A stretch of 64,000 nt of DNA from an uncultured Gemmatimonadales bacterium (lineage in GTDB: Bacteria; Gemmatimonadota; Gemmatimonadetes; Longimicrobiales; RSA9). This document shows, piece by piece, positions 21,863 through 62,013 of this stretch. The position numbers and the translations under genes were made by a program. Numbering within the stretch: the stretch's first letter is position 1; every line of letters begins with the position of its first letter. The stretch covers positions 4,832,001 through 4,896,000 of the forward strand of contig OY970192.1 of assembly GCA_963708135.1 (NCBI GenBank). The letters are read 5' to 3'. The notes beneath the pieces were generated by a model. That model saw only the letters and a list, made by a program, of their open reading frames with translations, was not told the DNA's origin and did no database searches.

Positions 21863-22480
21863 CGGAGTTTCAGCGCCGGCTGCTGGCGGAGCTGGCGTCG
21901 CCACCGAACGACGAGCGCTATCTGGCGGGCGGCGCGGGGATGCACTTCGCGCCGAACTCGGCCCGCTACAGCGATGACCTCGATTTCTTCCACGATTCCG
22001 AAGCCCGCGTTTCGCATCCGCCTTCGCCGCGGATCGCGATCATCTCGAGCGCGCTGGCTACACGGTGGAAGTCGAGCAGAGTCTTCCCGGGATTCGTCCG
22101 GGCGGGTGCTAGCGCTGGCGGCTCTGTGCTGGGCGGCGGTGGGCAAGGATCCTGGCTTCACGCCGCTTTCGCTGCTGGAGCTGCTGAAGCGGCGGGGCCG
22201 CTACCGGCCGGAGGATTTCGCCCGCCTCCACCTCGCCGAGCCGTTCGAGGTCACGGACGCGAAGCGGACCTGGCTGGCGGCGCTTGCGGAGACGGAGTCG
22301 TTCGTGCGCGAGCGGCCGCCGGAGGAGAGCGGCTGCCTCTACTATTCGACTGAACGCCAGCAGTTCGTGGTGCCGCGAAGCGATGCCAGTTTGGCCGCGC
22401 AACGGGTCGTGCCGCACTTCGGCGCGCCAGGCGGCATGCTGCCCCGGATGGCCGATTCCCGAGTCGAAGGAGCGTCGTGA
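21853..22480 (+). pseudogene. AbiEii-like nucleotidyltransferase toxin, frameshifted and probably internally deleted
   Basis: MPLTEFQRRLL..YLAGGAG..RYSDDLDFFHD (NTase GG/DxD motif); coding continues in two other frames (..YTVEVEQSLPGFVRA; ALCWAAVGKDPGFTP..). Confidence 0.7.
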
Positions 22481-25137
22481 TCTCTGCCGCCGAGCGTCTC
22501 TCGGCCGCCCTCGCGGACCGCTACCGCATCGAGCGCGAGCTCGGCGAGGGCGGCATGGCGACCGTGTATCTCGCGCGCGACCTGAAGCACGAGCGCGACG
22601 TCGCCCTCAAGGTGCTTCGGCCGGAGCTCGCCGCGGTCATCGGCGCCGAGCGCTTCCTCGCCGAGATCAGGACCACGGCCAACCTGCAGCACCCGCACAT
22701 CCTGCCGCTCTTCGACTCGGGCGAGGCGAGCTCCTTCCTGTTCTACGTGATGCCGTACGTCGAGGGCGAGTCGCTGCGCGACCGGCTGAATCGGGAGAAG
22801 CAGCTGCCCATCGCGGACGCGCTGCGCATCGCGCTGGGGGTTGCCTCGGCGCTGGACTACGCGCACCGCCACGACGTCGTCCACCGCGACATCAAGCCGG
22901 AGAACATCCTGCTGCACGACGGTCAGCCGCTGGTGGCCGACTTCGGCATCGCGCTGGCGCTGAGCACGGCCGGCGGCACGCGCATGACGGAGACGGGGAT
23001 GAGCGTGGGCACGCCCACGTACATGAGCCCCGAGCAGGCCATGGGCGAGCGCGCCATCGATGCCCGGGCCGACATCTACTCCCTCGGCTGCGTCGTCTAC
23101 GAGATGCTGACGGGTGACCCGCCGTTCACGGGCTCGACCGCACAGGCGATTGCGGCACGCGTGCTCACGGAGCCGCCGCGATCACTGACGAAGCAGCGGC
23201 ACACCGTCCCCGCGCATGTCGAGGCGGCGGTGCTGACGGCGCTGGAGAAGCTGCCGGCGGATCGGTTCGCCACGGCGCAGGCCTTCGCCGATGCGCTCGA
23301 GGGCAAGGCGGGCGCCACGGCGGCCGCGGTGCGCGGGATCGCCGGTGCCGCGCGCCGCTCTGGATGGCGGGGGACGCTGCGGAACCCGGCGGTGTGGGTG
23401 CTGGGCCTCGTCGCCATCGGCTTGTCGGTGGTAGCCTTTCGTGAGCGGACCGCCAACCGGACCGCTGGTGCCGACAGTGTGGTGCGCTTCACCGTGGACC
23501 TCCCCCCTGGCTACGAGCCGGCCATGTACGACGCCGGAGGGCCCGACCTGGCGATCTCTCCGGACGGATCCACGCTGGCCTTCCCCGTGATCGATCCGCG
23601 CGGCGGCCAGCAGTTGTTCGTGCGACGCCTGGCCGAGGCGACCGCCCGGGTGCTCCCGGGCACCGACGGTGGATTCGGGCCGACGTTCTCGGCGGATGGA
23701 GCCCACGTCCTGTTCTATACGGCCGGCCGGCTCGAGAAGGTGGCGCTCAGTGGCGGCGCTCCTCAGCTGGTGGCGAGCAAGCTCCCGGGGGGTGGGCAGA
23801 CCTGGATACCTCACGGGGACATCGTCTTTTCCACCCCCGCATTCCCCGTTCTCATGCGTGTCTCCGCCGCGGGGGGCGAGCCACGCCCCGCGGCAGCCCT
23901 GGACACAGCGCGGGCAGAAAGGGGCCAGTTCTTCCCGCACGCCCTGTCCGATGGTCGCCACGTGCTCTACACGAGTTGGGGCCGCGGATCGACGGAAGAC
24001 GCCCGTATAGGCATCCTGGACCTCTCCACCGGCCGCGCGCGCCGGCTCGACGTGTCCGGCACGTTCCCTCTGGGGATGCTGGACGGGCGGCTCATCTACA
24101 CCGACCAGACCGGCACCGTGCTGGCGGTGCCGCTCGATGTCGCCTCCGGCCGCGTAAGCGGTCAGTCGGTTCCGCTGCTCACCGGTGTGGCGACGTCGGC
24201 CCGCGGCTCGGCCGTGGCCGCGCTCTCGCCAACGGGTACCCTGGCGTACGAGGGAGGCAGTCGGGAGTCGACCCTGGTGCTTGCGAACGCGGCCGGGGCG
24301 ACGCCGCTCCTTCCCGAGGCCCGGCCTTACTCGATGCCGCGCTTTTCCCCGGATGGTAAACGGGTGGCCGTCAGCATTGCGTCGGGCACCTCGTCGGACA
24401 TCTGGCTGGAGGACGTGGTATCCGGGAGCCTGACGCGACTCACCAGCGGCGGCACGGTCAACGAGCGACCCGAGTGGTCGCCCGACGGGACCCGGGTGAT
24501 CTTCCGCACCGTGCGGGGCGGACGCTCGGCCATCTGGTGGCAGCCCGCCAACGGCAGCGGGCCCGCGTCCCCCCTCCTCGCCGACAGTGATGCGGACTAT
24601 TTCGAGGGGGTCATGACGCCCGACGGCCGCAGTCTGGTCTACCAGGTGGACACGGGCGAGTCCGACGTCATGATCCGGCGGCTGGACGGAGGCGACACGG
24701 ACCGCGTCATCGCCGCCACCCCGGCCACCGAATCCCGTCCGCGCGTCTCGCCCGATGGCCGCTGGGTGGCGTACATGACCGATGACGGCGGTGGGCCGCA
24801 GGTGGTCGTTCAGCCGATCTCCGGCTCGGGTGCCAGGGTCCAGGTCTCGGTCCGCGGAGGCAACGAGCCGGTCTGGGCGCCTGACGGCCGCCACCTCTTC
24901 TACCGGAACGACGGCAAGTTCATTGTAGCCGAGGTTTCGGGCACGCCGACATTCCACGTCCTCTCCCGATCCGACTTCATGAACGACACCTACCTGCCGT
25001 CGGCCGTGCCCCACGCGAACTACGACGTCTCGCCGGACGGGAAGAAGCTGCTCGTAGTCGAGGGCGAGCGGCAGCAGCTCATGGTGGTGCACGACTGGGC
25101 CGCGGAGGAGAGGGCGAAGCTGAAGGAGGTCAACTGA
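22477..25137 (+). CDS. Ser/Thr kinase K3: kinase-TM-TolB-like propeller
   Basis: Full kinase motifs, TM, PD40 blades; close paralogue of 50921-53587. Confidence 0.95.
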   Translation: MISAAERLSAALADRYRIERELGEGGMATVYLARDLKHERDVALKVLRPELAAVIGAERFLAEIRTTANLQHPHILPLFDSGEASSFLFYVMPYVEGESLRDRLNREKQLPIADALRIALGVASALDYAHRHDVVHRDIKPENILLHDGQPLVADFGIALALSTAGGTRMTETGMSVGTPTYMSPEQAMGERAIDARADIYSLGCVVYEMLTGDPPFTGSTAQAIAARVLTEPPRSLTKQRHTVPAHVEAAVLTALEKLPADRFATAQAFADALEGKAGATAAAVRGIAGAARRSGWRGTLRNPAVWVLGLVAIGLSVVAFRERTANRTAGADSVVRFTVDLPPGYEPAMYDAGGPDLAISPDGSTLAFPVIDPRGGQQLFVRRLAEATARVLPGTDGGFGPTFSADGAHVLFYTAGRLEKVALSGGAPQLVASKLPGGGQTWIPHGDIVFSTPAFPVLMRVSAAGGEPRPAAALDTARAERGQFFPHALSDGRHVLYTSWGRGSTEDARIGILDLSTGRARRLDVSGTFPLGMLDGRLIYTDQTGTVLAVPLDVASGRVSGQSVPLLTGVATSARGSAVAALSPTGTLAYEGGSRESTLVLANAAGATPLLPEARPYSMPRFSPDGKRVAVSIASGTSSDIWLEDVVSGSLTRLTSGGTVNERPEWSPDGTRVIFRTVRGGRSAIWWQPANGSGPASPLLADSDADYFEGVMTPDGRSLVYQVDTGESDVMIRRLDGGDTDRVIAATPATESRPRVSPDGRWVAYMTDDGGGPQVVVQPISGSGARVQVSVRGGNEPVWAPDGRHLFYRNDGKFIVAEVSGTPTFHVLSRSDFMNDTYLPSAVPHANYDVSPDGKKLLVVEGERQQLMVVHDWAAEERAKLKEVN

Positions 25138-25140
25138 ATC

Positions 25141-26115: not shown

Positions 26116-26167
26116 GCGGCCCCGACCGAGCTCCCGCCCGCACACCGGAGTGTCCATCCTGGCCGAC

Positions 26168-28945: not shown

Positions 28946-31630
28946 GTGACCCCTGGCGCGGACCGGCTATCGGCCGCCCTCGCCGACCGCTACCGCATCG
29001 AGCGCGAGCTCGGCGCGGGCGGCATGGCCACGGTCTACCTCGCCGAGGACCTGAGGCATCACCGCCAGGTGGCCATCAAGGTGCTCAAGCCCGAGCTCGC
29101 CGCCGTGCTCGGCGCCGATCGCTTCGTCCAGGAGATCACCACCACCGCCCAGCTGCAGCACCCGCACATCCTGCCGCTCTTCGACTCCGGCACTGCCGAC
29201 GGCTTCCTCTTCTACGTCATGCCCTACGTCGAGGGCGAGACGCTGCGGGACAAGCTGAACCGCGAGACGCAGCTCGGCGTGGACGAAGCCGTGCGGATCA
29301 CGACCGAGGTGGCCGACGCGCTGGACTACGCGCACCGGCACGGCGTGGTGCACCGCGACATCAAGCCGGAGAACATCCTGCTCCACGACGGCCGCCCGAT
29401 GGTGGCGGACTTCGGCATCGCGCTGGCGGTCAGTGCGGCGGCGGGCGGGCGCATGACGGAGACCGGGCTGAGCCTCGGCACGCCGCACTACATGAGTCCC
29501 GAGCAGGCGACGGCGGAGAAGGACCTCACCGGGCGCAGCGACGTCTACTCGCTGGCGAGCGTTCTCTACGAGATGCTGACCGGCGACCCGCCGCACGTCG
29601 GCTCCTCCGCGCAGCAGATCATCATGAAGATCGTGACGGAGGAGGCGGCGCCGGTCACGAAGCTGCGCCGCTCCGTGCCGCCGAACGTGGCGGCGGCGGT
29701 GGCCAAGGCGCTGGAGAAGCTGCCGGCCGACCGGTTCGAGAGCGCGAAGGCCTTCGCGGACGCCTTGAACGATCCTGGTTTCGCGACTCAGGCCACCGCC
29801 GCGCGATCGTTCGCCGCCGTGCCCGCCGGCCGACCGCTCGTCGTGCTCGCCGTGGCCGCCACCGCCGTGGTCGTGGCGCTGGCGGCCGGATGGATGATCG
29901 GCGGGCGCGGTGGCGATCCCGGCAGCGTCGCCCCCTCGGACGTCGTGCACGCCACCCTGGGGCTGGGGGACAGCGTCACCGTCCCCCAGATCCTGACGCT
30001 GCGGCTGGCGATCTCACGATCGGGACGGCGCCTCGCGTTCATCGGCCAGAAGGGCGGCGTCGTGCAGCTATGGGTCCGCGAGCTCGGCGAGGACGCGGCG
30101 CACCCGGTGGCGGGCACCGAGGGGGCCGGCGATCCCTTCTTCTCCCCGGACGGAGAATCGATCGGGTTCTTCACGGGCAGTGGAGCGCGCGCGCAGCTCC
30201 GCGTGGTGCGCTTCAGTGGCGGTGCGGTTCGCACGGTCGTCCAGGATTCGCTCCAGGACTACGGCGGCGGTTCGTGGGGGGACGACGGTCGGATCTACTT
30301 CGTATACGGCGACGGCCTCGCCTCCGTGGGCGCGACGGGGGGGCCTGTGACGAGCATCGCGCGGCCGGACTCGGGATCGGGCGCCTTCCAGTACGGCTTT
30401 CCGGAGGTGCTCCCGGGAAGCCAGAAGGTTCTGATCATGGTCTACCGGGGATCGCTCGGCGCGTCACGGATCGGCGTGGTCGATGTGGCGACGAGGGGCG
30501 TCACCGAGCTCACTCCCGGTACCGTCGCGCGCTACGTGGCGCCGGGATATCTGGCGATCGGGCTGCCCGACGGCCGCATCCTCGCCGCGCGCTTCGACGC
30601 CGCGGCGGCCCGTCTCACGAGCCCCCCGATCCCCGTTCTGCAGGGCGTTCAGACCGATAACACGAACGGCTCGGTGCAGTTCTCGGTGTCGTCAACCGGT
30701 ATCCTGGTCTACGAGCGCCAGTCCGGCGGCATCGGCGGACCCGTCTGGGTGGATCGGGCCGGCGCAATCACGCCGGTGGACACGAACCTGACCGGCGCGT
30801 ACCAGGATCCGGCGCTGTCCCCGGACGGCAGCCAGTTCGTCGTGGTCCGGCAGGAGGCCGGGGCGACGCAGCTGTGGGTGAAGCAGCTCCCGACGGGCGC
30901 CTTCACCCGACTCACCTCGGATCCGGAAAGCGCGGATCGCCCGGAATGGTCGCCGGACGGGCGACGAGTGGCATACCTCGCCACGGTGAACGGGGTGCGC
31001 AGAGCCTTCATCCGACGGGCCGACGGAAGCGGCGACGAGCGTCCTGTCATGCCGAATCTGCCCGAGCTGGACGAAGTCGCGCTAGACCCCCGCGGGCGCT
31101 TTCTGCTCTTCCGTACCTTCGGTGCCGGAATCGACAGCCGCCATCTACTCGTCGCGGAGGCCGGCAGGGACACGGTACCGCGGGTGCTCCTCCCCTCGCG
31201 CCTCGATCACTACGCGATGAGACTCTCACCCGACGGACGCTGGCTCGCGTACGTCTCGGAGGAATCCGGGGTCGCCGAGGTTTATGTCCGCCCCTTCCCC
31301 AACGTCGATTCGGCGCGGATCGCGATATCGGTGGGAGGCGGCGTCGAGCCGCTCTGGGGCCGCGACGGCACCGAGCTCTTCTTCCGCGGCCGGCGCGGCG
31401 AGATGTTCGCGACGCCCGTGACCCTCGGCGCGCGCTTCACGCAGGGGACGCCGACCCTGTTGTTCAGGCTCCCCGGCCTCGTGCAGGATCCCTACCATCG
31501 CGCCTACGACGTGAGCCCGGATGGCACGCGGTTCCTGATGGTTACGAGCGCCGGCGACGACGCGTCCGACCTGAACGTGATCGTCAACTGGCGCGTCGAG
31601 GTCGAGCGGGCGATGGAGAACGGGAAGTGA
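28946..31630 (+). CDS. Ser/Thr kinase K4: kinase-TM-TolB-like propeller
   Basis: GTG start chosen by alignment with paralogues; full kinase motifs; PD40 blades. Confidence 0.95.
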   Translation: MTPGADRLSAALADRYRIERELGAGGMATVYLAEDLRHHRQVAIKVLKPELAAVLGADRFVQEITTTAQLQHPHILPLFDSGTADGFLFYVMPYVEGETLRDKLNRETQLGVDEAVRITTEVADALDYAHRHGVVHRDIKPENILLHDGRPMVADFGIALAVSAAAGGRMTETGLSLGTPHYMSPEQATAEKDLTGRSDVYSLASVLYEMLTGDPPHVGSSAQQIIMKIVTEEAAPVTKLRRSVPPNVAAAVAKALEKLPADRFESAKAFADALNDPGFATQATAARSFAAVPAGRPLVVLAVAATAVVVALAAGWMIGGRGGDPGSVAPSDVVHATLGLGDSVTVPQILTLRLAISRSGRRLAFIGQKGGVVQLWVRELGEDAAHPVAGTEGAGDPFFSPDGESIGFFTGSGARAQLRVVRFSGGAVRTVVQDSLQDYGGGSWGDDGRIYFVYGDGLASVGATGGPVTSIARPDSGSGAFQYGFPEVLPGSQKVLIMVYRGSLGASRIGVVDVATRGVTELTPGTVARYVAPGYLAIGLPDGRILAARFDAAAARLTSPPIPVLQGVQTDNTNGSVQFSVSSTGILVYERQSGGIGGPVWVDRAGAITPVDTNLTGAYQDPALSPDGSQFVVVRQEAGATQLWVKQLPTGAFTRLTSDPESADRPEWSPDGRRVAYLATVNGVRRAFIRRADGSGDERPVMPNLPELDEVALDPRGRFLLFRTFGAGIDSRHLLVAEAGRDTVPRVLLPSRLDHYAMRLSPDGRWLAYVSEESGVAEVYVRPFPNVDSARIAISVGGGVEPLWGRDGTELFFRGRRGEMFATPVTLGARFTQGTPTLLFRLPGLVQDPYHRAYDVSPDGTRFLMVTSAGDDASDLNVIVNWRVEVERAMENGK

Positions 31631-50310: not shown

Positions 50311-50924
50311 CCGGTCCTTCCGAGCGCCTCGCCGCCGCCCTCGCCGACCGCTACCGCATCGAGCGCGAGCTCGGCGCGGGCGGCATGGCCACGGTCTACC
50401 TGGCCGAGGACCGGCGCCATCACCGGCAGGTGGCCATCAAGGTGCTCAAGCCCGAGCTCGCCGCCGTGCTCGGCGCCGATCGCTTCGTCCAGGAGATCAC
50501 CACCACCGCCCAGCTGCAGCACCCGCACATCCTGCCGCTCTTCGACTCCGGCACTGCCGACGGCTTCCTCTTCTACGTCATGTGGCAGGTCTCGTCCGGA
50601 GGCGGCGCGGCGCCGCGCTGGTCTCACGACGGCCGCGCCATCTTCTACATCGATCCTGCCAGGCGCATGAGAATGGCGGACGTTCGGACCTCGCCCACGT
50701 TCGCGCTCGTGGGCCAGCGGCTGCTCGGCTCGCAGCTGAGCGCCGCGGGGGCAGGTGGAGTGGCGTACGCATACTTCCCCACCTACGCCGTCACGCCCGA
50801 CGATCGACATTTCGTGATGCTGGCGCCTCCCGAGCACGGCTCGGCGCGTAGCGAGTTCGTTCCGGTGGTCGAGATCGAGCACTGGCGCCCCGGGACGCCG
50901 TTGAACCTGGGGCCGCGACGATGA
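50307..50924 (+). pseudogene. K12: internally deleted kinase (N-lobe fused in frame to the last propeller blades)
   Basis: ..GFLFYVM|WQVSSGGGAAPRWSHDG..; lacks HRD, DFG and TM; junction at 50582/50583. Confidence 0.9.
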
Positions 50925-53587
50925 CGGACGCGAGCCGCCTCGCCGCCGCCCTCTCCGACCGCTACCGCATCGAGCGCGAGCTCGGCGCGGGCGGCATGGC
51001 GACGGTGTATCTCGCGCGCGACCTGAGGCACGAGCGCGACGTCGCCCTCAAGGTGCTGCGTCCGGAGCTCGCCGCGATCATCGGCGCCGAGCGATTCCTG
51101 GCCGAGATCAGGACCACGGCCAACCTGCAGCACCCGCACATCCTGCCGCTCTTCGACTCGGGCGAGGCGGACTCGTTCCTGTTCTACGTGATGCCGTACG
51201 TGGCCGGGGAGTCGCTCCGGGACCGGCTGAATCGCGAGAAGCAGCTGCCCATCGCGGAGGCCCTGCGCATCGCCACGGGGGTGGCCTCCGCGCTGGACTA
51301 CGCCCACCGCAACGGCGTGGTCCACCGCGACATCAAGCCGGAGAACATCCTGCTCCACGACGGCCAGCCGCTGGTGGCCGACTTCGGCATCGCGCTGGCG
51401 CTGAGCAGCGCGGGCGGCACGCGCATGACGGAGACGGGCATGAGCGTGGGGACGCCCACGTACATGAGCCCCGAGCAGGCCATGGGCGAGCGGGACATCG
51501 ACGCGCGCGCCGACATCTACTCGCTGGGCTGCGTCGTCTACGAGATGCTGAGCGGGGACCCGCCGTTCACGGGCTCGACCGCGCAGGCCATCGCCGCGCG
51601 CGTGCTCACGGAGACGCCGCGGTCGCTGACAAAGCAGCGCCACACCATCCCGCCGCACGTCGAGGCGGCGGTGCTGACGGCGCTGGAGAAGCTGCCGGCG
51701 GACCGCTTCGCCACGGCGCAGGCCTTCGCCGACGCGCTCGAGGGCAAGGCGGGCGTGACGCCGGCCGCGGTGCGCGGGATGCGCCGCGCCGCGCCGGCCA
51801 GGGGCTGGCAGGCGAGGCTGCGCGATCCGGTGGTCTGGGCGCTGGCCGTCGCCGCCGTCGTCGCCTCGGGCGTGGCGTTCCTCCAGCGGACGGACAGCCG
51901 GAGCCTGGATGGCGGCAGCGTGGTGCGCTTCACCGTGAGCCTCCCCGCGGGCTACCGGCCGTCCCTGTCGAATACCAACGGGCCCGACCTGGACATCTCT
52001 CCGGATGGATCCACGGTGGTCTTCCCGGTGATCGACGCGCGCGGTGGCGATCGGCTGTACGTGCGACGCATGGACGAGGCGACGGCGCGCCCCCTTCCTG
52101 GGACCGACCGTGCGTATGTCCCGCGCTTTTCGGCGGATGGCGCCTCGGTCGAGTTCTTCGCGGCCGGCCGGTTCGAGAAGGTGGCGCTCAGTGGAGGCGC
52201 CCCCCTGGTCGTCACCGAAGTCGGCAGTCTGATCGTGGGAAGCACGTGGGCGCCGGATGGAGACATCTTCTTTGCCACTCCCGCCTCCCCCGTTCTCATG
52301 CGCGTTTCCGGCGCGGGCGGCCGGGCACGCGCAGCGGCCAGCCTGGACACGGCCAGGGGAGAAACGCTCCAACTCTTTCCCCGGGCACTGCCAGATGGGC
52401 GGCACGTGCTCTACCTCAGCTGGGGCCACGGGGGGACCGAAGACGCCCGCATCGGGCTCCTGAACCTGTCCACCGGGCGCACGCGCCGGCTCGACGTGGC
52501 CGGCACGTTCCCGCTGGGGATGCTGGACGGGAAGCTGATCTACGCCGACCAGACCGGCACCGTGCTGGCCGTACCGCTCGACATCGCGTCCGGAACCGTG
52601 AGCGGCCAGCCGGTCCCGCTGCTCACCGGGGTGGCGACCTCGGCCCGCGGCTCGGCCGTGGCCGCGCTCTCGCCGACGGGGACGCTGACGTACGACGGAG
52701 GCGGTCGGGACGCGACCCTCGAGCTGGCGAATGCGGCTGGCGCGACGCCGCTTCTCCCGGATGTCCGGGCCTACTCGACGCCGCGCTATTCCCCGGATGG
52801 GAAGACGGTGGCCGTCAGCGTCGCTTCCGGCACCTCGTCGGACATCTGGCTGGGAGACGTCGCATCGGGGAGCCTTACGCGACTCACCAGCGGCGCCGCA
52901 GTCAACGAGCGGCCCGAATGGTCTCCCGACGGGTCCCGGGTGATCTTCCGCACGGTCCACGGCGGACGTTCGGCCCTCTGGTGGCAGCCCGCCAATGGGA
53001 GCAGCCCCGCCTCACCGCTGCTCGCCGACAGCAACGCGGACTACTTCGAAGGGGTCATGACCCCGGATGGCCGCAGCCTGGTCTTCCAGGTGGACACGGG
53101 CCAGTCGGACATCATGGTCCGGAACCTCGAGGGACGCGGCCCGGACCGTCCTCTCGCCGCCACCCCGGCGCAGGAAGACCATCCGCGCGTCTCGCCGGAC
53201 GGCCGCTGGGTCGCGTACGTGAAGGACGACGGTAGTGGGCCGCAGGTGGTCGTCCAGTCCATATCGGGCGTTGGCGCTCGAGTCCAGGTTTCCGTGCGCG
53301 GAGGCGACGAGCCGGTCTGGTCACCGGACGGTCGCAGGATCTTCTACCGAAACGAAGGGAAGTTCATTGTCGCCGAGGTTGCGGCGACGCCGACCTTTCA
53401 CGTCGTCTCCCAGGCGGACTTCATGGACGACACCTACCTGCCTTCGCCAGTTCCGCACGCCAACTTCGACGTCTCACCGGACGGGAAGTCTCTGCTCGTG
53501 GTCAAGGGCGAGCCGGAGCAGTTCATGGTGGTCCACGACTGGGCTGCCGAGGTGAGGACGAAGCTCGCAGGGGCCGAGAAGCGCTGA
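50921..53587 (+). CDS. Ser/Thr kinase K13: kinase-TM-TolB-like propeller
   Basis: ATGA overlap with K12; full motifs; paralogue of K3. Confidence 0.95.
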   Translation: MTDASRLAAALSDRYRIERELGAGGMATVYLARDLRHERDVALKVLRPELAAIIGAERFLAEIRTTANLQHPHILPLFDSGEADSFLFYVMPYVAGESLRDRLNREKQLPIAEALRIATGVASALDYAHRNGVVHRDIKPENILLHDGQPLVADFGIALALSSAGGTRMTETGMSVGTPTYMSPEQAMGERDIDARADIYSLGCVVYEMLSGDPPFTGSTAQAIAARVLTETPRSLTKQRHTIPPHVEAAVLTALEKLPADRFATAQAFADALEGKAGVTPAAVRGMRRAAPARGWQARLRDPVVWALAVAAVVASGVAFLQRTDSRSLDGGSVVRFTVSLPAGYRPSLSNTNGPDLDISPDGSTVVFPVIDARGGDRLYVRRMDEATARPLPGTDRAYVPRFSADGASVEFFAAGRFEKVALSGGAPLVVTEVGSLIVGSTWAPDGDIFFATPASPVLMRVSGAGGRARAAASLDTARGETLQLFPRALPDGRHVLYLSWGHGGTEDARIGLLNLSTGRTRRLDVAGTFPLGMLDGKLIYADQTGTVLAVPLDIASGTVSGQPVPLLTGVATSARGSAVAALSPTGTLTYDGGGRDATLELANAAGATPLLPDVRAYSTPRYSPDGKTVAVSVASGTSSDIWLGDVASGSLTRLTSGAAVNERPEWSPDGSRVIFRTVHGGRSALWWQPANGSSPASPLLADSNADYFEGVMTPDGRSLVFQVDTGQSDIMVRNLEGRGPDRPLAATPAQEDHPRVSPDGRWVAYVKDDGSGPQVVVQSISGVGARVQVSVRGGDEPVWSPDGRRIFYRNEGKFIVAEVAATPTFHVVSQADFMDDTYLPSPVPHANFDVSPDGKSLLVVKGEPEQFMVVHDWAAEVRTKLAGAEKR

Positions 53588-53588
53588 G

Positions 53589-56258
53589 ATGATCCCCGAC
53601 CGCCTCGCCGCCGCCCTGGCCGACCGCTACCGCATCGAGCGCGAGCTCGGCGCGGGCGGCATGGCCACGGTCTACCTGGCCGAGGACCTCAGGCACGACC
53701 GCAAGGTGGCCATCAAGGTGCTCAAGCCCGAGCTGGCCGCCGTGCTCGGCGCCGAGCGCTTCGTGCAGGAGATCAAGACGACGGCGCAGCTGCAGCACCC
53801 GCACATTCTCCCCCTCTTCGACTCCGGCACCGCCGGCGGCTTCCTCTACTACGTCATGCCGTACCTCGAGGGCGAGACCGTTCGCGAGAAGCTCAACCGC
53901 GAGACGCAGCTCGGGGTGGCCGAGGCGGTGCGGATCACCACGGAGGTGGCGGACGCGCTCGATTACGCCCACCGCCACGGCGTGATCCACCGCGACATCA
54001 AGCCCGAGAACATCCTGCTGCACGACGGCCGGCCCATGGTCATGGACTTCGGCATCGCGCTGGCGGTCTCCGCCGCTGCGGGCGGGCGCATGACCGAGAC
54101 CGGGCTCTCACTCGGCACGCCGCATTACATGAGCCCGGAGCAGGCGACGGCGGACCGCGACATCACGGCGCGCTCCGACATCTACTCGCTGGCGAGCGTG
54201 CTGTACGAGATGCTCGCGGGCGAGCCGCCCCACATGGGCAACTCGGCGCAGCAGATCATCATGAAGATCGTGACGGAGGAGGCGGCGCCGGTCACGAGGC
54301 TGCGCAAGTCCGTGCCGCCGAACGTCGCGGCGGCGCTGTCGAAGGCGCTGGAGAAGCTCCCGGCCGATCGGTTCGACACCGCGAGGGAGTTCGGCGAGGC
54401 GCTCAAGGACCCGGCGTTCACTGGCCCGTCTGCCGCTCCCGCTGCCTCCGACAGGGTGCGGCGATCACCGGCGGTCACCTATCTCCTCATGGCCGCTTGC
54501 GTGGCGCTCGCAGCCCTCTCCGCCTGGTGCTGGCTCCGCTCGCGTCGCACGCCGGTAGCGTGGTTCATCATCGGCTTCCCCACGAATCAGGCGCCGAGCT
54601 ACTCGGCAGTCGGCACGCACGTGGCCCTCTCCCGTGACGGGGCGATGCTGGCGTACATCAGCGGGCCATCGGGCGACTCGAGGCTGTGGATCAAGCGACG
54701 CGATGCCCTGACGGCCGAGCCGATCCCCGGCACCGAGGGCGCGTACGATCCGTTCTTCTCGCCCGACGGGCGACAGCTCGGGTTCATCACCGATCGCAAC
54801 GGCCGCGCGATGAAGATCGTCAGTCTGGCCGGCGGTCCGCCCCACGCCGTCCCCGCCGCGGCGACCCGCGGGATGGGAACCGGCGGCGCCTGCTGGGCCA
54901 GCGACGGCTACATCTACTTCGACGCGGACCTCGGTGGGCTGCAGCGCGTGAAGCCCGACGGCACCGGCCTCGAGACCGTCGTGCCCCTCGATTCGGCGCG
55001 GAACGAGACGGGCGTCGCGTGGCCCGAAGTCCTGCCCGACAACAAGGTCGTGGTCTTCCGGCTCCGCCACGGCACCGACGCGCCGGGCGATTTTGCGATC
55101 GTCGCGCTTCGGATCGGCACGACGGAGCGCCGCGTCGTGGCGCGAGGCGTGAGCGCGCGTTACGCGTCCGGCCGGCTCCTCTGGGTCACCGCGGACGGCA
55201 CGCTGCAGGCGGCCCCGTTCGACGAACGGCACCTCGCGCTCACCGGTCCGGCGACCGGGGCCGGATATGGCGTGCGCGTCTATGGAGCCTATGCGGGCGC
55301 GGACCTCTCCATCACCGAGAGCGGGGATCTGTACTACGTCGCCGGAGCGGCGGGCGCCGCAACCACCCTCGACTGGGTCACGCGTGACGGCGTTACGCGG
55401 CCCGTGGATACGACGTGGAACGAGAGCAGCGAGATCCGGGGGCTCGCGCTCGCTCCGGACGGCAAGGAGGTGGCGCTCGATCTGGCCCGCCCGACGGGGA
55501 CCGACATCTGGATCAAGCACCTGCCCGCCGGCGCGCTCACGCGGCTGACGCTCGATTCCGCCGCGGACAGTCGGCCCCGGTGGTCCGGCGACGGGCGCGA
55601 CGTGCTCTTTCTCTCGGAGCGCGTGAAGCCGGCCGCGATCTTCCGGCGACGTGAAGACGGCACCGGCCATGCCGTCCTCGTCGCGCACGCGGACAGGAGC
55701 ATCACCGAGGCATCCGAGTCGCGGGATGGTCGCTGGCTCGTTGCGCGCACGTCGAGCTCGGAGCGGGGAAACGGCGACATTCTCGCGATGGAAGTCGGCC
55801 GGGATACGATGCTGCGACCGATCGTCGCGACCGCCGCGGCGGAGAGCAACCCGGATCTCTCGCCGGATGGCCGGTGGCTCCTGTACGTCTCCACCGCATC
55901 AGGACGACGCGAGGTGTACGTGCGTCCGTTCCCCGACGTGAACGGCGGCGTCTGGCAGATCTCCACCGAAGGCGGCGTGGAGCCGCGGTGGTCGCACGCC
56001 GGGAACGAGATCTTCTTCAGGGGCCTCGCCTCGCCCGACATGATGGCGGTCGACGTGCAGACGACGCCGGCGTTTCACGCGGGTGCGCCCCACGTGCTGT
56101 TTCACACGGACGCCGTAACCGGCCTGGACTACCCGCGCTACGACGTGGCACCCGACGATCGCCGCTTCCTCATGGTTGGACACGGCGGTGACACCGCCCC
56201 GCAACTGGTGCGCGTCGAGCACGTTCTCCAGGCTCTCGAGCGCAAGCCCGCACCGTGA
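53589..56258 (+). CDS. Ser/Thr kinase K14: kinase-TM-TolB-like propeller
   Basis: Starts 1 bp after the K13 stop; full motifs. Confidence 0.95.
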   Translation: MIPDRLAAALADRYRIERELGAGGMATVYLAEDLRHDRKVAIKVLKPELAAVLGAERFVQEIKTTAQLQHPHILPLFDSGTAGGFLYYVMPYLEGETVREKLNRETQLGVAEAVRITTEVADALDYAHRHGVIHRDIKPENILLHDGRPMVMDFGIALAVSAAAGGRMTETGLSLGTPHYMSPEQATADRDITARSDIYSLASVLYEMLAGEPPHMGNSAQQIIMKIVTEEAAPVTRLRKSVPPNVAAALSKALEKLPADRFDTAREFGEALKDPAFTGPSAAPAASDRVRRSPAVTYLLMAACVALAALSAWCWLRSRRTPVAWFIIGFPTNQAPSYSAVGTHVALSRDGAMLAYISGPSGDSRLWIKRRDALTAEPIPGTEGAYDPFFSPDGRQLGFITDRNGRAMKIVSLAGGPPHAVPAAATRGMGTGGACWASDGYIYFDADLGGLQRVKPDGTGLETVVPLDSARNETGVAWPEVLPDNKVVVFRLRHGTDAPGDFAIVALRIGTTERRVVARGVSARYASGRLLWVTADGTLQAAPFDERHLALTGPATGAGYGVRVYGAYAGADLSITESGDLYYVAGAAGAATTLDWVTRDGVTRPVDTTWNESSEIRGLALAPDGKEVALDLARPTGTDIWIKHLPAGALTRLTLDSAADSRPRWSGDGRDVLFLSERVKPAAIFRRREDGTGHAVLVAHADRSITEASESRDGRWLVARTSSSERGNGDILAMEVGRDTMLRPIVATAAAESNPDLSPDGRWLLYVSTASGRREVYVRPFPDVNGGVWQISTEGGVEPRWSHAGNEIFFRGLASPDMMAVDVQTTPAFHAGAPHVLFHTDAVTGLDYPRYDVAPDDRRFLMVGHGGDTAPQLVRVEHVLQALERKPAP

Positions 56259-56355: not shown

Positions 56356-56361
56356 CTTTCC

Positions 56362-56757: not shown

Positions 56758-57020
56758 CGCCCGCCGGCCTGCCGCTCCGCCCGGATCTCGCGGATCCAGG
56801 CCTCGGCCTTCTCTTCCGTCAGCCCCAGTCGCGCCTGCAGCTCGTCCAGCGCGGCAATGGCGTTGGAGGCGGCGTCCGCCTCTTCGATGATCGCGGCCGT
56901 GTTCACGATGCGCCGCACGACCTCGGACTTGGACACGCCCCAGCGCTCGGCGAGCTCATCGAGTGCCGCCACCGTCTCGGGGTCGAGCGCGAAGGTGGTC
57001 CGTATCGTCATCCTGGCCAT
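56754..57020 (-). CDS. CopG/ribbon-helix-helix antitoxin
   Basis: RTTFALDPETVAALDELAERWGVSKSEVVRR; stop overlaps the toxin start. Confidence 0.88.
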   Translation of the reverse strand: MARMTIRTTFALDPETVAALDELAERWGVSKSEVVRRIVNTAAIIEEADAASNAIAALDELQARLGLTEEKAEAWIREIRAERQAGGR

Positions 57021-57027
57021 GCCGAAA

Positions 57028-57041
57028 GTTATGGCCATAAC
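57028..57041. promoter_or_regulatory. Probable TA operator, perfect 14-bp palindrome
   Basis: GTTATGGCCATAAC just upstream of the antitoxin start. Confidence 0.65.
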
Positions 57042-57167
57042 AACCCCTCCGCAAGGAACGCGGTTCCGCCAGCGCAGAAGGATCGGGATACCGGCGGGGC
57101 GGGTCCATGGCGCAGTGGGACGGGACGAGCCGCCGGGCGGTAACATCAACCAAGTGGAGGACTGCAG

Positions 57168-59330: not shown

Positions 59331-59364
59331 GCTTCGATGCCGAGGTCTGTCGCAGGAGGAGGCG

Positions 59365-62013
59365 ATGGCTGATGCCAGTGGCCGCCTGAGCGCCGCCCTC
59401 TCGGGCCGCTACGGCATCGAGCGCGAGCTCGGTGAGGGCGGGATGGCCACGGTGTATCTGGCCGAAGACCTGAAGCACCGCCGGATGGTGGCGCTGAAGG
59501 TGCTCAAGCCGGAGCTGGCCGCGCTGGTGGGCGCGGACCGCTTCCTGACGGAGATCGAGACCACCGCCAACCTGCAGCACCCCCACATCCTGCCGCTCTT
59601 CGACTCGGGCGAGGCGGATGGATTCCTGTACTACGTGATGCCCTGGATCGAGGGCGAGTCGCTCCAGGGGCGACTCGACCGGGAGCACCAGCTTCCGATC
59701 GGTGAGGCGCTCGCGATCGCGGAGAAGGTGGCCGCGGCGCTGCAGTACGCGCACGAGCAGGGGGTGGTGCACCGGGACATCAAGCCGGATAACATCCTGC
59801 TCTCGCGGGGCGAGCCGCTCGTGGCCGACTTCGGCATTGCGCTGGCGGTGAGCCACGCCAGAGGCGGGCGCCTCACCGAGACCGGGCTCAGCGTGGGCAC
59901 GCCCCACTACATGAGCCCGGAGCAGGCCGCGGGCGAACGAGAGATCGATCCAAGATCGGACGTGTACTCACTGGCCTGCGTGCTGTACGAGATGCTCACC
60001 GGGCAGCCGCCCTTCGGCGGCACCACCGGCCAGGCGGTGCTCGCGCGCATCCTGACCGGAGAGCCCGATCGGCCCACCGCGCACCGACGCAGCGTCCCGG
60101 CCCACGTGGAGGCGGCGCTGCTCAAGGCGCTCGAGCGCCTTCCAGCCGACCGCTTCGCCAGCGCGGCGGCCTTCGCCGCGGCCCTCGAGAACCCGTCCTT
60201 CGGCGCGGACGCCCGCCGCCCCGCAGGAGCCGGCGCCGCCACCGCCGCGCCGCGGAGCTCGCCCGGGCGCCGGCTGCTTCCCTGGGCGATCGCGGTCCTC
60301 GCGGTGGCAGTCGCCGTGGCGTCAACCGTCTTCCGGCGCGGCGGTCCCGACCGCCATCCGCTCCGTGTCGATCTCATGCCGCCCGCGGGCACGGAGTTCT
60401 CCGAGTTCCGGTTTGCGGCTCTGTCTCCCGACGGGTCGAAGCTCGCGTTCGTCGGACTCCGTCCGGCCGGCGGGCGTGTGCTCTGGATCCGCGACCTCGA
60501 GAGCGGCCGCACGGATTCCCTTCACGCCGCCAGCGGCGCTCAGGCCCCGTTCTGGTCCCCCGACGGCAAGGCCATTGGCTACTTCGCCGCGGGGAACCTG
60601 CGGCGCATCCAGGCCGATGGCACCGCCGCGCAGTCGCTGTGCGACACTCCCGATGTCGGTGGCTCCTGGAGCAGCCGCGGCGCGATCGTATTCACCCGTC
60701 TCGGGCACCCCATGACCGTGGCTGCCGGCGGCGGCGCGTGCACGCCGGTGCGCGGCGCGTGGACGGACTCGTCGAAGACCGTCACTGAACCCGCCTGGCT
60801 CCCCGACGGCATCCACTTCGCCGCCACGGACGGGGGCATCAACATCGTGGTGAGCGACGTGGCCGGCGACGCGCCGCGGCTCATGATCGCCGATGCCGGT
60901 GACGTGCACTTCGTCGCGCCAGATCTCATCGTCTTCGCCAAGGGCAGCCCGGGGGGCGCCGATATCGTTGCCCAGCATTTCGAGCCCGGGACCCTCGCCC
61001 TCGTCGGCTCACCCACGACGCTCGCCCACGACGTCCGAGCGGCCAGCGGCGTCACCTCCTACGCCGTCACGGATAGCGCGCTGGTCTACCTGCATGCGAC
61101 CCGCACGGACCAGGGGCCGCTCGTCGTCGACGAGCGCGGGGTCATCGTGGACAGCATCGCCCAGCAGGGGTCCTGGACCTTGCGCCTGGCCAACGGCCAT
61201 CCCCTGCTGGCGCTGGCGGGCGACGGCGTCTGGGAGTACGACCTCGAGCGCCGCACCGCCGTTGTCGTGAGAGGCGCGAGCGCCATGTACGCATTCCCTG
61301 TGTGGAGCCCGGACGATACGATCCTCGCGGTCGCGCGCTGGAGCCCGCACTGCGCCGTGAGCCTGCTGCGGCTTCGATCCGGAACGGACACGATCATCGT
61401 CAACGAGCGGGAATCGCACCGCCGCCTGCTCTGTTCCTCCCCGAGCGACTGGACGCGGGACGGCCGCTTCCTCGTCCTGACGATGATTCCCGCAGGTTCT
61501 CCGGACCACGGAGAGATCTGGACCTACGAGCCGGCCACGGGGAAGCTCGACAAGCTCGTCGCCGTGGATGGGGCGGCCTCGGCAGGCGTGGTATCGCCCG
61601 ACGAGCGCTGGCTGGCCTACGTCTCCGACGAGACCGGTGAGCTGGAGGTATACGTGCGCCCCTTCCGCAGCGCGGGCGCCGCCGTGCGCGTGTCAACCCG
61701 CGGCGGCGGCAACCCGCGCTGGAGCGGCGACGGCCGCGCGCTCTTCTACATCGCGCCGGACGGATGGGTCGTGCGCGTGCCGGTCCCGGCGGGGCCCGAC
61801 CTGCGCCCGGGATCGCCGGAAGCCCTGTTTGCCGCCCCGCGGTGGAGCATCCGGCTGTTCGCGGATCAGGCTGGCGGACAGCAGCAGACGACCCCCTTCG
61901 ACGTGAGCGCCGATGGCAAGCGCTTCTTCGTGCGCCAGCGCAGCGAGACGACGCAGGCGGGCAACCTGGTCCTGGGCTGGCGTGCCCTGCTGGGCGAAAA
62001 GGCCGAGCCATGA
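59365..62013 (+). CDS. Ser/Thr kinase K15: kinase-TM-TolB-like propeller
   Basis: GGAGGAGG RBS; full motifs; PD40 blades. Confidence 0.95.
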   Translation: MADASGRLSAALSGRYGIERELGEGGMATVYLAEDLKHRRMVALKVLKPELAALVGADRFLTEIETTANLQHPHILPLFDSGEADGFLYYVMPWIEGESLQGRLDREHQLPIGEALAIAEKVAAALQYAHEQGVVHRDIKPDNILLSRGEPLVADFGIALAVSHARGGRLTETGLSVGTPHYMSPEQAAGEREIDPRSDVYSLACVLYEMLTGQPPFGGTTGQAVLARILTGEPDRPTAHRRSVPAHVEAALLKALERLPADRFASAAAFAAALENPSFGADARRPAGAGAATAAPRSSPGRRLLPWAIAVLAVAVAVASTVFRRGGPDRHPLRVDLMPPAGTEFSEFRFAALSPDGSKLAFVGLRPAGGRVLWIRDLESGRTDSLHAASGAQAPFWSPDGKAIGYFAAGNLRRIQADGTAAQSLCDTPDVGGSWSSRGAIVFTRLGHPMTVAAGGGACTPVRGAWTDSSKTVTEPAWLPDGIHFAATDGGINIVVSDVAGDAPRLMIADAGDVHFVAPDLIVFAKGSPGGADIVAQHFEPGTLALVGSPTTLAHDVRAASGVTSYAVTDSALVYLHATRTDQGPLVVDERGVIVDSIAQQGSWTLRLANGHPLLALAGDGVWEYDLERRTAVVVRGASAMYAFPVWSPDDTILAVARWSPHCAVSLLRLRSGTDTIIVNERESHRRLLCSSPSDWTRDGRFLVLTMIPAGSPDHGEIWTYEPATGKLDKLVAVDGAASAGVVSPDERWLAYVSDETGELEVYVRPFRSAGAAVRVSTRGGGNPRWSGDGRALFYIAPDGWVVRVPVPAGPDLRPGSPEALFAAPRWSIRLFADQAGGQQQTTPFDVSADGKRFFVRQRSETTQAGNLVLGWRALLGEKAEP

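What the first reader, a model, noticed from the sequence alone, without database searches (positions are those of the whole stretch)
22477..62013. Kinase and sensor halves have discordant relationships (module swapping)
Seen: the K5 sensor resembles K3/K13 (N[DE]RPEW[TS]PDG, FEGV[IM]TPDG..LV[YF]QVD, PHAN[YF]DVSP), but its kinase is the QEITTTAQL type rather than the K3/K13 AEIRTTANL type. K8 and K15 share sensor motifs (PPxGx[DE]FSE..ALSPDG, FxAPxW..LF) but have different kinase types. K9 and K10 share a distinctive kinase (REKQLPVREAVDLTSEV..HAGRPM) but have dissimilar sensors. Inference: crossovers in the conserved kinase reassort sensors and outputs.
Basis: partly seen in the sequence, partly recalled or inferred. 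Interest (0 to 1): 0.75.

Follow-up and report, generated by a model that had tools for sequence, protein, structure and literature searches.

The report
Receptor kinase array exchanges its kinase halves
A Gemmatimonadota bacterium carries fifteen neighbouring receptor kinase genes whose very similar kinase halves have been exchanged among copies by recombination, while the outward-facing sensor halves have stayed separate, old lineages.

Summary
The window holds 14 full Ser/Thr receptor kinase genes and one remnant, K12. Thirteen full genes are PknB-like kinase, one membrane helix and a TolB-like propeller sensor; K1 has a TPR sensor and a weaker hydrophobic peak. Every cited motif is present.

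Separate trees conflict. K5 sensor groups with K3/K13 (100/99) and K8 with K15 (100/99). The kinase alignment rejects both groupings (p-AU 0.005 and 7e-5). The K9/K10 conflict is marginal within the window (p 0.043).

Recombination, not rate differences, explains the conflict. Synonymous divergence of kinase and sensor halves is uncoupled. K10 and its relative L003_14352 have dS 0.54 before codon 256 and 0.04 after. K12 and K4, 21 kb apart, differ at 5 of 249 kinase bases. K5 and K6 share an exact 152-nt run. PHI was reached by 0 of 1000 permutations.

Across 18 genomes, kinases cluster by genome and sensors by type.

The K5, K8 and K15 pairings recur in their closest sampled relatives, so those joins are old; the K9 type recurs in only one of four K9 relatives. 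Ten of the 14 kinases fall in one clade (81-96% identical; six at 93-96%), so exchange mostly keeps a shared output. It is a new variant of known processes.

The parts
12688..15360 (+). K1: Ser/Thr kinase with a C-terminal TPR region instead of a propeller. Used as the outgroup for kinase trees.
   Evidence: Pfam Pkinase 1.6e-50 plus TPR families. Kinase is 58-62% identical to the others. Its best 19-residue hydropathy peak (1.48, aa 305-323) stays below the 1.6 cut-off used.
18752..21460 (+). K2: receptor kinase with the common (A-type) kinase.
   Evidence: Pkinase plus PD40. One hydrophobic segment at aa 300-321. In the A clade.
22477..25137 (+). K3: receptor kinase with the AEIRTTANL (B-type) kinase. 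Whole-gene paralog of K13.
   Evidence: K3/K13 are 93% identical in the kinase and 76% in the sensor. dS is 0.28 in the kinase and 0.53 in the sensor.
28946..31630 (+). K4: receptor kinase, A-type. First gene of the tightly packed run K4-K14.
   Evidence: Gaps between successive genes K4..K14 are -4, 64, -4, 0, -4, -4, -4, -4, -4 and 1 nt.
31627..34293 (+). K5: A-type kinase joined to a sensor of the K3/K13 lineage.
   Evidence: Sensor clade K5+(K3,K13) 100/99. Kinase AU test rejects K5+K3+K13, p 0.005. The sensor model is a tandem beta-propeller, pLDDT 87.8.
34358..37033 (+). K6: receptor kinase, A-type.
37030..39711 (+). K7: receptor kinase, A-type. Its sensor is sister to that of K9.
   Evidence: K7+K9 sensors 97/96.
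39712..42375 (+). K8: A-type kinase joined to a sensor of the K15 lineage.
   Evidence: K8+K15 sensors 100/99. Kinase AU test rejects K8+K15, p 7e-5.
42372..45068 (+). K9: receptor kinase with the REKQLPVREAVDLTSEV/HAGRPM kinase subtype.
   Evidence: K9+K10 kinases 97/99. Kinases of the five K9-type sensor orthologs are rejected as one clade, dlnL 91, p 6.5e-5.
45065..47665 (+). K10: receptor kinase with the same kinase subtype as K9 and an unrelated, very divergent sensor.
   Evidence: Kinase 92% and sensor 22% identical to K9.
45065..45828 (+). 5' module of K10. It has a different history from the rest of the gene. The best breakpoint is at about window 45829 (codon 256, the end of the kinase domain).
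   Evidence: Against L003_14352, 144 of 764 nt differ to the left and 38 of 1834 to the right. Max chi-square is 233, reached by 0 of 200 permutations. dS is 0.54 against 0.041.
47662..50310 (+). K11: receptor kinase, A-type, with a divergent sensor.
50307..50924 (+). K12: remnant gene. Kinase residues 1-92 are fused in frame to the last ~113 residues of a propeller. HRD, DFG and the membrane segment are missing.
28973..29221 (+). K4 copy of the tract shared with K12 (partner copy at 50334-50582). An exact run of 156 nt lies at 29066-29221 and 50427-50582.
   Evidence: 5 differences in 249 nt. Over 234 nt of this tract the 12 other kinases compared (K1 not included) differ from K12 at 17-50 positions. 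The sensor remnant of K12 is not K4-like: its best matches are K9-type at 35-39%.
32218..32369 (+). K5 copy of an exact 152-nt run shared with its neighbour K6 (34949-35100), in the C-lobe of the kinase.
   Evidence: The run covers 95 consecutive matching polymorphic sites, reached by 0 of 1000 permutations. The median longest exact run among A-type pairs is 44 nt.
34528..34644 (+). K6 copy of an exact 117-nt run shared with K8 (39885-40001).
   Evidence: Permutation p 0.01, uncorrected for 78 pairs.
50921..53587 (+). K13: receptor kinase, B-type. Paralog of K3.
53589..56258 (+). K14: receptor kinase, A-type but more divergent.
59365..62013 (+). K15: receptor kinase with its own long-branch kinase, grouped with B. 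Its sensor is sister to that of K8.
   Evidence: The nearest 4 database relatives of its sensor (63-75%) carry a K15-type kinase, 84-88% identical.

Best explanation
What it is. This is a tandem, operon-like array of single-pass receptor Ser/Thr kinases. Each has a cytoplasmic PknB-like kinase, one membrane helix and an extracytoplasmic TolB-like tandem beta-propeller.

How the discordance arises. The first 0.8-0.95 kb of every gene encodes the kinase. In the main clade it stays about 80-92% identical in DNA between copies (K3, K13 and K15 are 69-77% identical to that clade), so it serves as a stretch of homology. Homologous exchange between these stretches repeatedly replaces all or part of one gene's kinase half with that of another copy. 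The exchange may be gene conversion, with some unequal crossing-over that also reorders, duplicates and deletes cassettes. It usually ends where homology ends, at the kinase end or linker.

Consequence. The kinase halves behave as one slowly mixing pool that partly tracks the genome. The sensor halves are old, separate orthologous lineages shared between genomes. The K5, K8/K15 and K9/K10 discordances are older products of this process. K4/K12, K5/K6 and the K10 breakpoint are its recent traces.

Shown: discordant trees, breakpoints, uncoupled synonymous divergence and shared tracts. Inferred: the molecular route (conversion or crossover), and the functional reading that many sensors feed one shared kinase output.
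For: 1. Window-only trees conflict and AU tests reject congruence for K5 and K8/K15.

2. With 18 genomes the conflict is larger.
- Kinases of the K3+K5 sensor clade (22 rows) are rejected as one clade (dlnL 465, p 8.6e-43).
- Kinases of the K9 sensor orthogroup (5 rows) are rejected (dlnL 91, p 6.5e-5).
- The A/B kinase split needs 9 changes on the sensor tree. One would do if the trees agreed.
- The 9 sensor orthogroups (45 rows) need 8 changes on the sensor tree but 24 on the kinase tree; shuffled labels give a mean of 27.6.
- The genome label needs 31 changes on the kinase tree (shuffled mean 40.6, 0 of 300 shuffles reach it) but 41 on the sensor tree (shuffled mean 40.7, 213 of 300).

3. 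Synonymous divergence is uncoupled (NG86).
- K10/L003_14352: kinase 0.54, sensor 0.041.
- L003_8984/L005_8984: 0.35 and 0.036.
- K4/L003_3616: 0.47 and 0.12.
- Paralogs with saturated sensors (dS 1.0-1.4) have kinase dS of only 0.26-0.45.

4. Breakpoints lie at codon 256 and codon 320. In each case 0 of 200 permutations reach the statistic.

5. Inside the window there are shared tracts.
- K4/K12: 5 differences in 249 nt.
- K5/K6: exact 152-nt run; K6/K8: exact 117-nt run.
- PHI for the 10 A-type kinases is 0.489 against a permuted mean of 0.532, reached by 0 of 1000 permutations.

6. Adjacent genes with unrelated sensors share a kinase in other genomes: L006_8984+L006_11681 (SH-aLRT 100) and three L003 genes (98).

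7. The order of sensor types around K5 orthologs differs in every locus that holds neighbours. K12 is a deletion remnant.
Against: - No donor was found for the 5' part of K10. The best matches are 88-89% nt in the window and loci and 94-95% aa in the protein database.
- The protein AU test does not reject K10 and L003_14352 kinases as sisters (p 0.64; the constrained tree scored 8.5 lnL higher). That event may be allelic exchange with a diverged strain rather than exchange between paralogs.
- Window A-type kinases are not freshly homogenised (dS 0.26-0.45). In DNA they are no closer to each other than to kinases of L003, L005 and L007.
- The 62-row kinase tree is poorly resolved: 28 of 59 inner branches have support under 80. 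This inflates the count of 24 changes.
- Label shuffles ignore relatedness.
- The groups tested were defined from the sensor tree after I had seen it.
- NG86 dS is rough at about 95% G+C in four-fold sites.
- All comparison loci are metagenome-assembled genomes.
Confidence: 0.7

Rival explanations
1. Reciprocal or unequal crossovers inside the kinase create new sensor-output pairings, which are kept because they rewire signalling.
For: Gene order of sensor types differs between genomes. K12 is a fused remnant. Two clearly different kinase clades, A and B, occur on the same sensor orthogroups: K5, K2, K6, K14 and K10 types each carry both. Within the K5 sensor family at 55-59% sensor identity, 13 proteins carry A-like and 15 carry K3-like kinases.
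Against: Six of the 14 window kinases are 93-96% identical and ten fall in one clade, so most exchanges change little in the output. Kinases cluster by genome, which points to homogenisation. The three cited pairings are old or mostly shared with relatives. No reciprocal product was seen.
Confidence: 0.15
2. There is no recombination. The kinase is under very strong purifying selection and K3/K13/K15 evolved faster, so similarity among the other kinases is shared ancestral state and the tree conflict is a rate artefact.
For: Kinase dN/dS is low, for example 0.039/0.451 for K4/K5. The QEITTTAQL-type kinase is also near-identical in other genomes. K15 and K10 are long branches.
Against: Selection on protein cannot make dS differ 10- to 13-fold across a sharp breakpoint. 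It cannot give a 249-nt tract with 5 differences between genes whose sensor ends are unrelated. AU tests reject congruent trees under a site-heterogeneous model. PHI is significant.
Confidence: 0.04
3. The recent mosaics come from exchange between strains or species: homologous recombination importing a diverged allele, or transfer of sensor-bearing cassettes. They do not come from exchange between paralogs of one genome.
For: No within-data donor exists for either 5' half of K10 or L003_14352. Their kinases may still be sisters. Near-identical sensors (dS 0.036-0.041) occur in genomes whose other orthologs differ far more, with sensor dS 0.12-0.48.
Against: K4/K12, K5/K6 and K6/K8 are exchanges between copies within this one window. 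Same-genome neighbours share kinases. Kinases cluster by genome.
Confidence: 0.08
4. Assembly artefact: repeats of about 0.8 kb caused chimeric joins in the window or in the metagenome-assembled loci.
For: All loci are MAGs. L003 ends right after its K10-type gene. Some loci hold truncated kinase genes.
Against: The same pattern appears in several independent assemblies and inside the window. The window's proteins are listed on a contig of 5,445,952 nt. The reading frames are intact through every junction.
Confidence: 0.03

Closest known systems
PknB-like Hanks-type receptor Ser/Thr kinases with extracellular sensor domains (PknB; PknD with an NHL beta-propeller, recalled from memory)
   Same: Cytoplasmic Pkinase domain, one membrane helix and an extracytoplasmic sensor. 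The profile matches PknB chains at E 2e-73. Catalytic motifs are present in 14 of 15 genes.
   Different: The sensor is a tandem PD40/TolB-like propeller of about 550 residues, not PASTA or NHL. The genes stand 15 in a row rather than singly.
TolB periplasmic beta-propeller
   Same: PD40 repeats. phmmer matches TolB chains at E 5.7e-17 over sensor residues 273-354. TolB chains are among the fold matches.
   Different: Only some blades match. The model has about 45 strands, consistent with two propellers. No Tol-Pal genes were seen among the flanking ORFs scanned. The sensor is fused to a kinase.
Lineage-specific expansion with domain shuffling of bacterial histidine kinases (Alm, Huang and Arkin 2006, PMC1630713; abstract read)
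   Same: A signalling gene family expands within a lineage, and sensor and transmitter parts are recombined.
   Different: There, shuffling changes the domain architecture. Here the architecture is constant and homologous modules are exchanged. The family is Ser/Thr kinases, not histidine kinases.
Expanded membrane Ser/Thr kinases with periplasmic WD40/TPR arrays in Planctomycetota and Myxobacteria (PMC11032199; passages read; it cites Perez et al. 2008, which I did not read)
   Same: Many single-pass kinases with periplasmic repeat sensors. Species-specific clades in Pkinase trees are read there as 'duplication and/or recombination'.
   Different: That work did not separate duplication from recombination in the passages I saw. 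Here the sensor orthogroups shared between genomes show that the genome-wise clustering of kinases is exchange, not recent duplication.
Concerted evolution of bacterial multigene families by gene conversion (for example duplicated tuf genes and rRNA operons; recalled from memory)
   Same: Non-reciprocal exchange keeps copies alike. Tracts are mosaic and bounded by homology.
   Different: Only one half of each gene takes part. Homogenisation is loose (dS 0.26-0.55), not near-identity.

Membership tests
Hanks-type (PknB-like) Ser/Thr protein kinase | Pkinase domain above the curated threshold | tested here: met
   PF00069 at 160.7-173.4 bits (cut-off 31.7) in 14 full genes. K12 scores 38.3 bits over residues 16-92 only.
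Hanks-type (PknB-like) Ser/Thr protein kinase | Catalytic motifs: VAIK lysine, HRD, DFG and SPEQ (the APE equivalent) | tested here: met
   All four are present in 14 of 15 genes. K12 keeps only VAIK.
Hanks-type (PknB-like) Ser/Thr protein kinase | Phosphotransfer activity | not testable with these tools
   Needs an enzyme assay.
TolB-like / PD40 beta-propeller | PD40 repeats and a propeller fold | tested here: met
   PF07676 is found in 13 of 13 propeller-type genes. TolB chains match at E 5.7e-17. The model is all-beta with pLDDT 87.8 and pTM 0.82. The best fold matches are double-propeller proteins and TolB, E 1e-16 to 1e-12, but TM-scores are only 0.30-0.36.
TolB-like / PD40 beta-propeller | TolB N-terminal domain and Pal/TolA partnership | not tested
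   No Tol-Pal genes were among the window ORFs scanned. Binding was not examined.
Concerted evolution by gene conversion | The exchanged region clusters by genome while flanking parts cluster by orthology | tested here: met
   Genome label: 31 changes on the kinase tree (0 of 300 shuffles as low) against 41 on the sensor tree (213 of 300). The effect is moderate, and the window's own kinases are not closer to each other in DNA than to those of L003, L005 and L007.
Concerted evolution by gene conversion | Mosaic tracts and a significant recombination statistic | tested here: met
   PHI reached by 0 of 1000 permutations. K5/K6 run reached by 0 of 1000. Exact runs of 152, 117 and 156 nt.
Concerted evolution by gene conversion | Identified donor and recipient, and non-reciprocity | tested here: inconclusive
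   The K4/K12 partners are identified but the direction is unknown. No donor was found for K10. Reciprocity cannot be judged from one genome.
Unequal crossing-over in a tandem array | Copy-number and order differences between relatives, and fused remnants | tested here: met
   Neighbours of K5 orthologs differ in every locus that holds neighbours, and L003 has two K4-type genes. K12 is an in-frame kinase-propeller fusion remnant. The junction of K12 is not between homologous positions, so that deletion itself is not a homologous crossover.
Domain shuffling in the sense of new domain architectures | Change of domain composition among recent paralogs | tested here: not met
   All 13 propeller-type genes have the same Pkinase-TM-PD40 architecture. 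Only K1 differs, with TPR, and it is the distant outgroup.

The most novel reading that the evidence does not exclude
The array is a bacterial 'variable ectodomain, constant kinase' receptor repertoire. Old and diverse propeller sensors are kept as separate specificities. Recombination among the kinase-coding halves is the mechanism, and possibly the selected one, that keeps all receptors wired to one shared output and able to pair with each other. This would resemble clustered receptor gene families of eukaryotes.
Probability: 0.3. Interest if true: 0.75.

Novelty: new variant of a known kind. Interest (0 to 1): 0.55.

Why it matters
Large families of bacterial receptor Ser/Thr kinases are usually explained by recent duplication, because kinase-domain trees show genome-specific clades. 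Here the sensor halves show that the genes are old, and that the kinase halves look young only because they are exchanged.

This has three consequences.
- Kinase-domain trees alone can mislead about the age and orthology of such genes.
- It suggests a design in which many inputs share one output.
- It gives testable cases with mapped breakpoints for studying how recombination is confined to one module of a gene.

The organisms are uncultured environmental Gemmatimonadota, and none of these proteins has a tested function.

Tried and rejected
- Fresh homogenisation by gene conversion was my first idea. It was rejected: four-fold-site identity among the near-identical kinases is only 63-75%, against 46% expected from composition, and dS is 0.26-0.45.
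- Pure purifying selection was rejected because of the breakpoints and the dS contrast.
- The search for the donor of the K10 5' half failed in the window and loci and in the protein database.
- The cluster look-up for K10 variants could not be made.
- The first treekit calls failed for technical reasons.
- The profile search of solved structures with A1 returned kinases, because the aligned rows were full length. I repeated it with the sensor alone.
- The repeat finder only confirmed 15 copies of the 5' repeat and added nothing on tracts.
- Literature searches:
  - 'Gemmatimonadetes' + 'threonine kinase' + 'propeller' gave 2 papers, neither relevant.
  - 'gene conversion' + 'concerted evolution' + 'kinase domain' + 'bacteria' + 'paralogs' gave 3 papers, none relevant.
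  - One four-term search gave no papers.
  I therefore found no prior description in the held library.
- Complex prediction and the search of protein representatives were not used. No binding claim is made.


Full report
WHAT IS THERE

The window has about 70% G+C. It holds 15 copies of a kinase 5' repeat on the + strand, spaced about 2.6-2.7 kb apart in the packed part. I defined 14 full genes and one remnant; the coordinates are under 'parts'.

Thirteen full genes have the same architecture:
- a Pkinase domain at residues ~16-270, scoring 160.7-173.4 bits;
- one strongly hydrophobic segment at residues ~295-325;
- about 550 residues with PD40 repeats.

K1 has TPR repeats instead of the propeller. 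Its hydropathy peak at residues 305-323 (1.48) is weaker and falls below the cut-off used. VAIK, HRD, DFG and SPEQ are present in 14 of 15 genes. A profile that includes the kinase matches PknB chains at E 2e-73.

The K5 sensor alone matches TolB chains at E 5.7e-17. Its AlphaFold model, built from 44 aligned rows, has pLDDT 87.8 and pTM 0.82. It is all-beta with about 45 strands. Its best fold matches are double-propeller proteins and TolB (E 1e-16 to 1e-12), though TM-scores are only 0.30-0.36.

From K4 to K14, successive genes overlap by 4 nt or lie 0-64 nt apart, so they look co-transcribed. The scanned flanking ORFs with a Pfam match are ordinary: an L,D-transpeptidase, transporters, a beta-lactamase-fold protein, a PLP enzyme, a TPR protein and a TerB-like protein, plus an S9 peptidase. 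Eight scanned ORFs had no match. Database relatives are named Gemmatimonadota.

The identity matrix gives:

| Pair | Kinase identity | Sensor identity |
|---|---|---|
| K5 with K3 and K13 | 72-73% | 42% (at most 32% to any other) |
| K5 with K4, K6, K7, K8, K11 | 93-96% | 25-31% |
| K8 with K15 | 68% | 37% |
| K9 with K10 | 92% | 22% |
| K4-K8 and K11 among themselves | 93-96% | 22-35% |

Careful window-only trees give, for sensors, K5+(K3,K13) 100/99, K8+K15 100/99 and K7+K9 97/96. For kinases they give K3+K13 97/98, K9+K10 97/99 and a clade of K2, K4-K11 and K14 at 92/86.

AU tests:

| Alignment | Grouping tested | dlnL | p-AU |
|---|---|---|---|
| Kinases | K5+K3+K13 | 28.3 | 0.005 |
| Kinases | K8+K15 | 32.1 | 7e-5 |
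| Sensors | K3+K13+K15 | 117.7 | 6e-130 |
| Sensors | K9+K10 | 5.6 | 0.043 |

The last result is weak because the K10 sensor is a very long branch.

IS IT RECOMBINATION OR ONLY DIFFERENT RATES?

My first idea, recent homogenisation, is wrong. Four-fold-site identity among the near-identical kinases is 63-75%, against 46% expected from composition and 46-60% for K1 against the others. Their dS is 0.26-0.45.

I then fetched relatives. The K5 sensor has thousands of homologs. One genome scan gave 22 loci, 18 of which contributed genes to the trees.

The sensor tree (56 rows) resolves well-supported orthogroups shared between genomes. They include:
- K5 type: 16 rows, support 100;
- K3 type: 5 rows, 99;
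- K3 and K5 types together: 22 rows, 100;
- K8 type with K15: 99;
- K9 type: 5 rows, 100.

The kinase tree (62 rows) splits into two clades. Clade A has 39 rows (99) and clade B has 15 rows (98). They cut across the sensor groups: the K5, K2, K6, K14 and K10 sensor types each carry both kinase clades.

Formal tests and counts:
- Kinases of the K3+K5 sensor clade are rejected as one clade (dlnL 465, p 8.6e-43).
- Kinases of the five K9-type orthologs are rejected (dlnL 91, p 6.5e-5).
- The A/B split needs 9 changes on the sensor tree. One would do if the trees agreed.
- The 9 sensor orthogroups (45 rows) need 8 changes on the sensor tree and 24 on the kinase tree; shuffled labels give a mean of 27.6 and a range of 23-29.
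- The genome label needs 31 changes on the kinase tree (shuffled mean 40.6, minimum 36, 0 of 300 shuffles as low) but 41 on the sensor tree (shuffled mean 40.7, 213 of 300).

So kinases lean towards clustering by genome and sensors do not. Neighbours with unrelated sensors share a kinase in L006 (support 100) and L003 (98).

SYNONYMOUS SITES SETTLE THE POINT (NG86)

| Pair | Kinase dS | Sensor dS |
|---|---|---|
| K10 / L003_14352 | 0.54 | 0.041 |
| L003_8984 / L005_8984 | 0.35 | 0.036 |
| K4 / L003_3616 | 0.47 | 0.12 |
| K9 / L001_14458 | 0.55 | 0.25 |
| K9 / L003_6294 | 0.36 | 0.29 |
| K5 / L003_8984 | 0.38 | 0.45 |
| K4/K5, K6/K8, K4/K7 (paralogs) | 0.26-0.45 | 1.0-1.4 |

Kinase dS stays within 0.26-0.55 for the A-type pairs (up to 0.80 for the A/B pairs K5/K3 and K8/K15), whatever the sensor dS. 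Selection on protein cannot produce this.

Maximum chi-square places the K10/L003_14352 breakpoint at K10 codon 256 (window ~45829). To the left 144 of 764 nt differ; to the right 38 of 1834 differ. For L003_8984/L005_8984 it lies at codon 320, with 108 of 956 against 40 of 1708. In each case 0 of 200 permutations reach the statistic. Both breakpoints are at the end of the kinase or in the linker.

TRACES INSIDE THE WINDOW

- K12 is a remnant. Kinase residues 1-92 are fused in frame to the last ~113 residues of a propeller.
- Its kinase piece differs from K4, 21 kb away, at 5 of 249 nt, with an exact run of 156 nt. The 12 other kinases compared (K1 was not included) differ from K12 at 17-50 of 234 positions.
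- The propeller piece of K12 is not K4-like. Its best matches are K9-type at 35-39%.
- K5 and K6 share an exact 152-nt run and K6 and K8 a 117-nt run. The median longest run among A-type pairs is 44 nt.
- The K5/K6 run was reached by 0 of 1000 permutations. PHI for the 10 A-type kinases was reached by 0 of 1000, and for all 13 by 1 of 1000.
- Several shorter runs near alignment nt 651-710 recur in many pairs. They may reflect a conserved stretch rather than exchange.

- The K5-type sensor carries an A-type kinase in 15 of 15 database relatives with at least 70% sensor identity. At 55-59% identity, 13 carry A-like and 15 carry K3-like kinases.
- In the loci, 13 of 16 K5-type genes are A and 3 are B; the 3 B genes are among the four deepest branches. 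The A kinase on the K5 lineage therefore predates the split of these genomes. Parsimony suggests a K3-like kinase came first, but the direction is not secure.
- K8-type orthologs carry A kinases in 2 of 2 foreign genes. The 4 nearest K15 relatives carry K15-type kinases (84-88%). More distant K15 relatives (51-56% sensor identity) carry A-like or other types.
- The K9/K10 subtype is shared with L003_6294 (a K9-type sensor) and L001_17154 (a K11-like sensor). K9-type orthologs in L001, L005 and L007 carry ordinary A kinases.

RESULTS AGAINST MY READING

- No donor was found for the K10 5' half.
- The protein AU test does not reject K10 and L003_14352 kinases as sisters (p 0.64), so that event may be allelic import.
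- Window kinases are no closer in DNA to each other than to those of L003, L005 and L007.
- The large kinase tree is poorly resolved: 28 of 59 inner branches have support under 80.
- Shuffles ignore relatedness.
- The groups tested were named after I had seen the sensor tree.
- All comparison loci are metagenome assemblies.
- I dropped rows before building the trees: genes under 780 residues, three partial or odd genes (L018_1, L019_8918, L022_7422), and the TPR-type genes from the sensor tree.

CONCLUSION

The kinase-coding halves act as shared homology, through which copies exchange all or part of the kinase module. The sensors persist as old, separate lineages.

However, the cited pairings are old, and the net effect is loose concerted evolution of a common output rather than frequent rewiring. 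Conversion and crossover cannot be separated here, although the reordered arrays and the remnant show that rearrangement also occurs.

COMPARISON WITH WHAT IS KNOWN

Domain shuffling after family expansion is described for histidine kinases (PMC1630713, abstract). Genome-specific Pkinase clades have been read as 'duplication and/or recombination' (PMC11032199, passages). My searches found no description of this case.

Noticed in passing
window 50307-50924: K12 is a 205-aa remnant. Kinase residues 1-92 are joined in frame to the last ~113 residues of a propeller. It still overlaps both neighbours by 4 nt. The junction (..FYVM|WQVS..) is not between homologous positions.
   Followed up: yes
window 57168-59330: An S9 family peptidase with its own PD40/DPPIV-type propeller sits between K14 and K15. 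I did not examine whether its propeller is related to the kinase sensors.
   Followed up: no
window 42397-42460 and 50943-51006: K9 (clade A) and K13 (clade B) share an exact 64-nt run at gene nt 26-89, reached by 0 of 1000 permutations. It could be a short exchange between the two kinase clades, or only the most conserved N-terminal motif.
   Followed up: partly
window 22477-25137 and 50921-53587: For the paralogs K3 and K13, kinase dS (0.28) is about half the sensor dS (0.53). Pairs judged concordant have ratios near 1. This hints at a later kinase exchange between the two.
   Followed up: partly
L005 17066-18394; L010 8982-10301, 11675-13801, 14273-15553; L009 2176-2439: Other arrays also hold shortened kinase genes of 87-708 aa. 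They may be remnants like K12, or frameshifts in the assemblies.
   Followed up: no
window 6327-8531 (-), 56176-57171 (+), 21739-22353 (+), 62140-63420 (-): These are long ORFs without any Pfam match. In DNA of 70% G+C, some may not be genes.
   Followed up: no
proteins: The database lists Pfam families PF26549 and PF26550 on nearly all these sensors. The local Pfam scan of the window proteins did not report them, so I did not see the curated names of these sensor domains.
   Followed up: no
L003 3616-6297 and 11680-14355: One locus carries two K4-type genes (sensors 90-91% identical to K4) separated by K9-type and K5-type genes. This shows cassette duplication within an array.
   Followed up: partly
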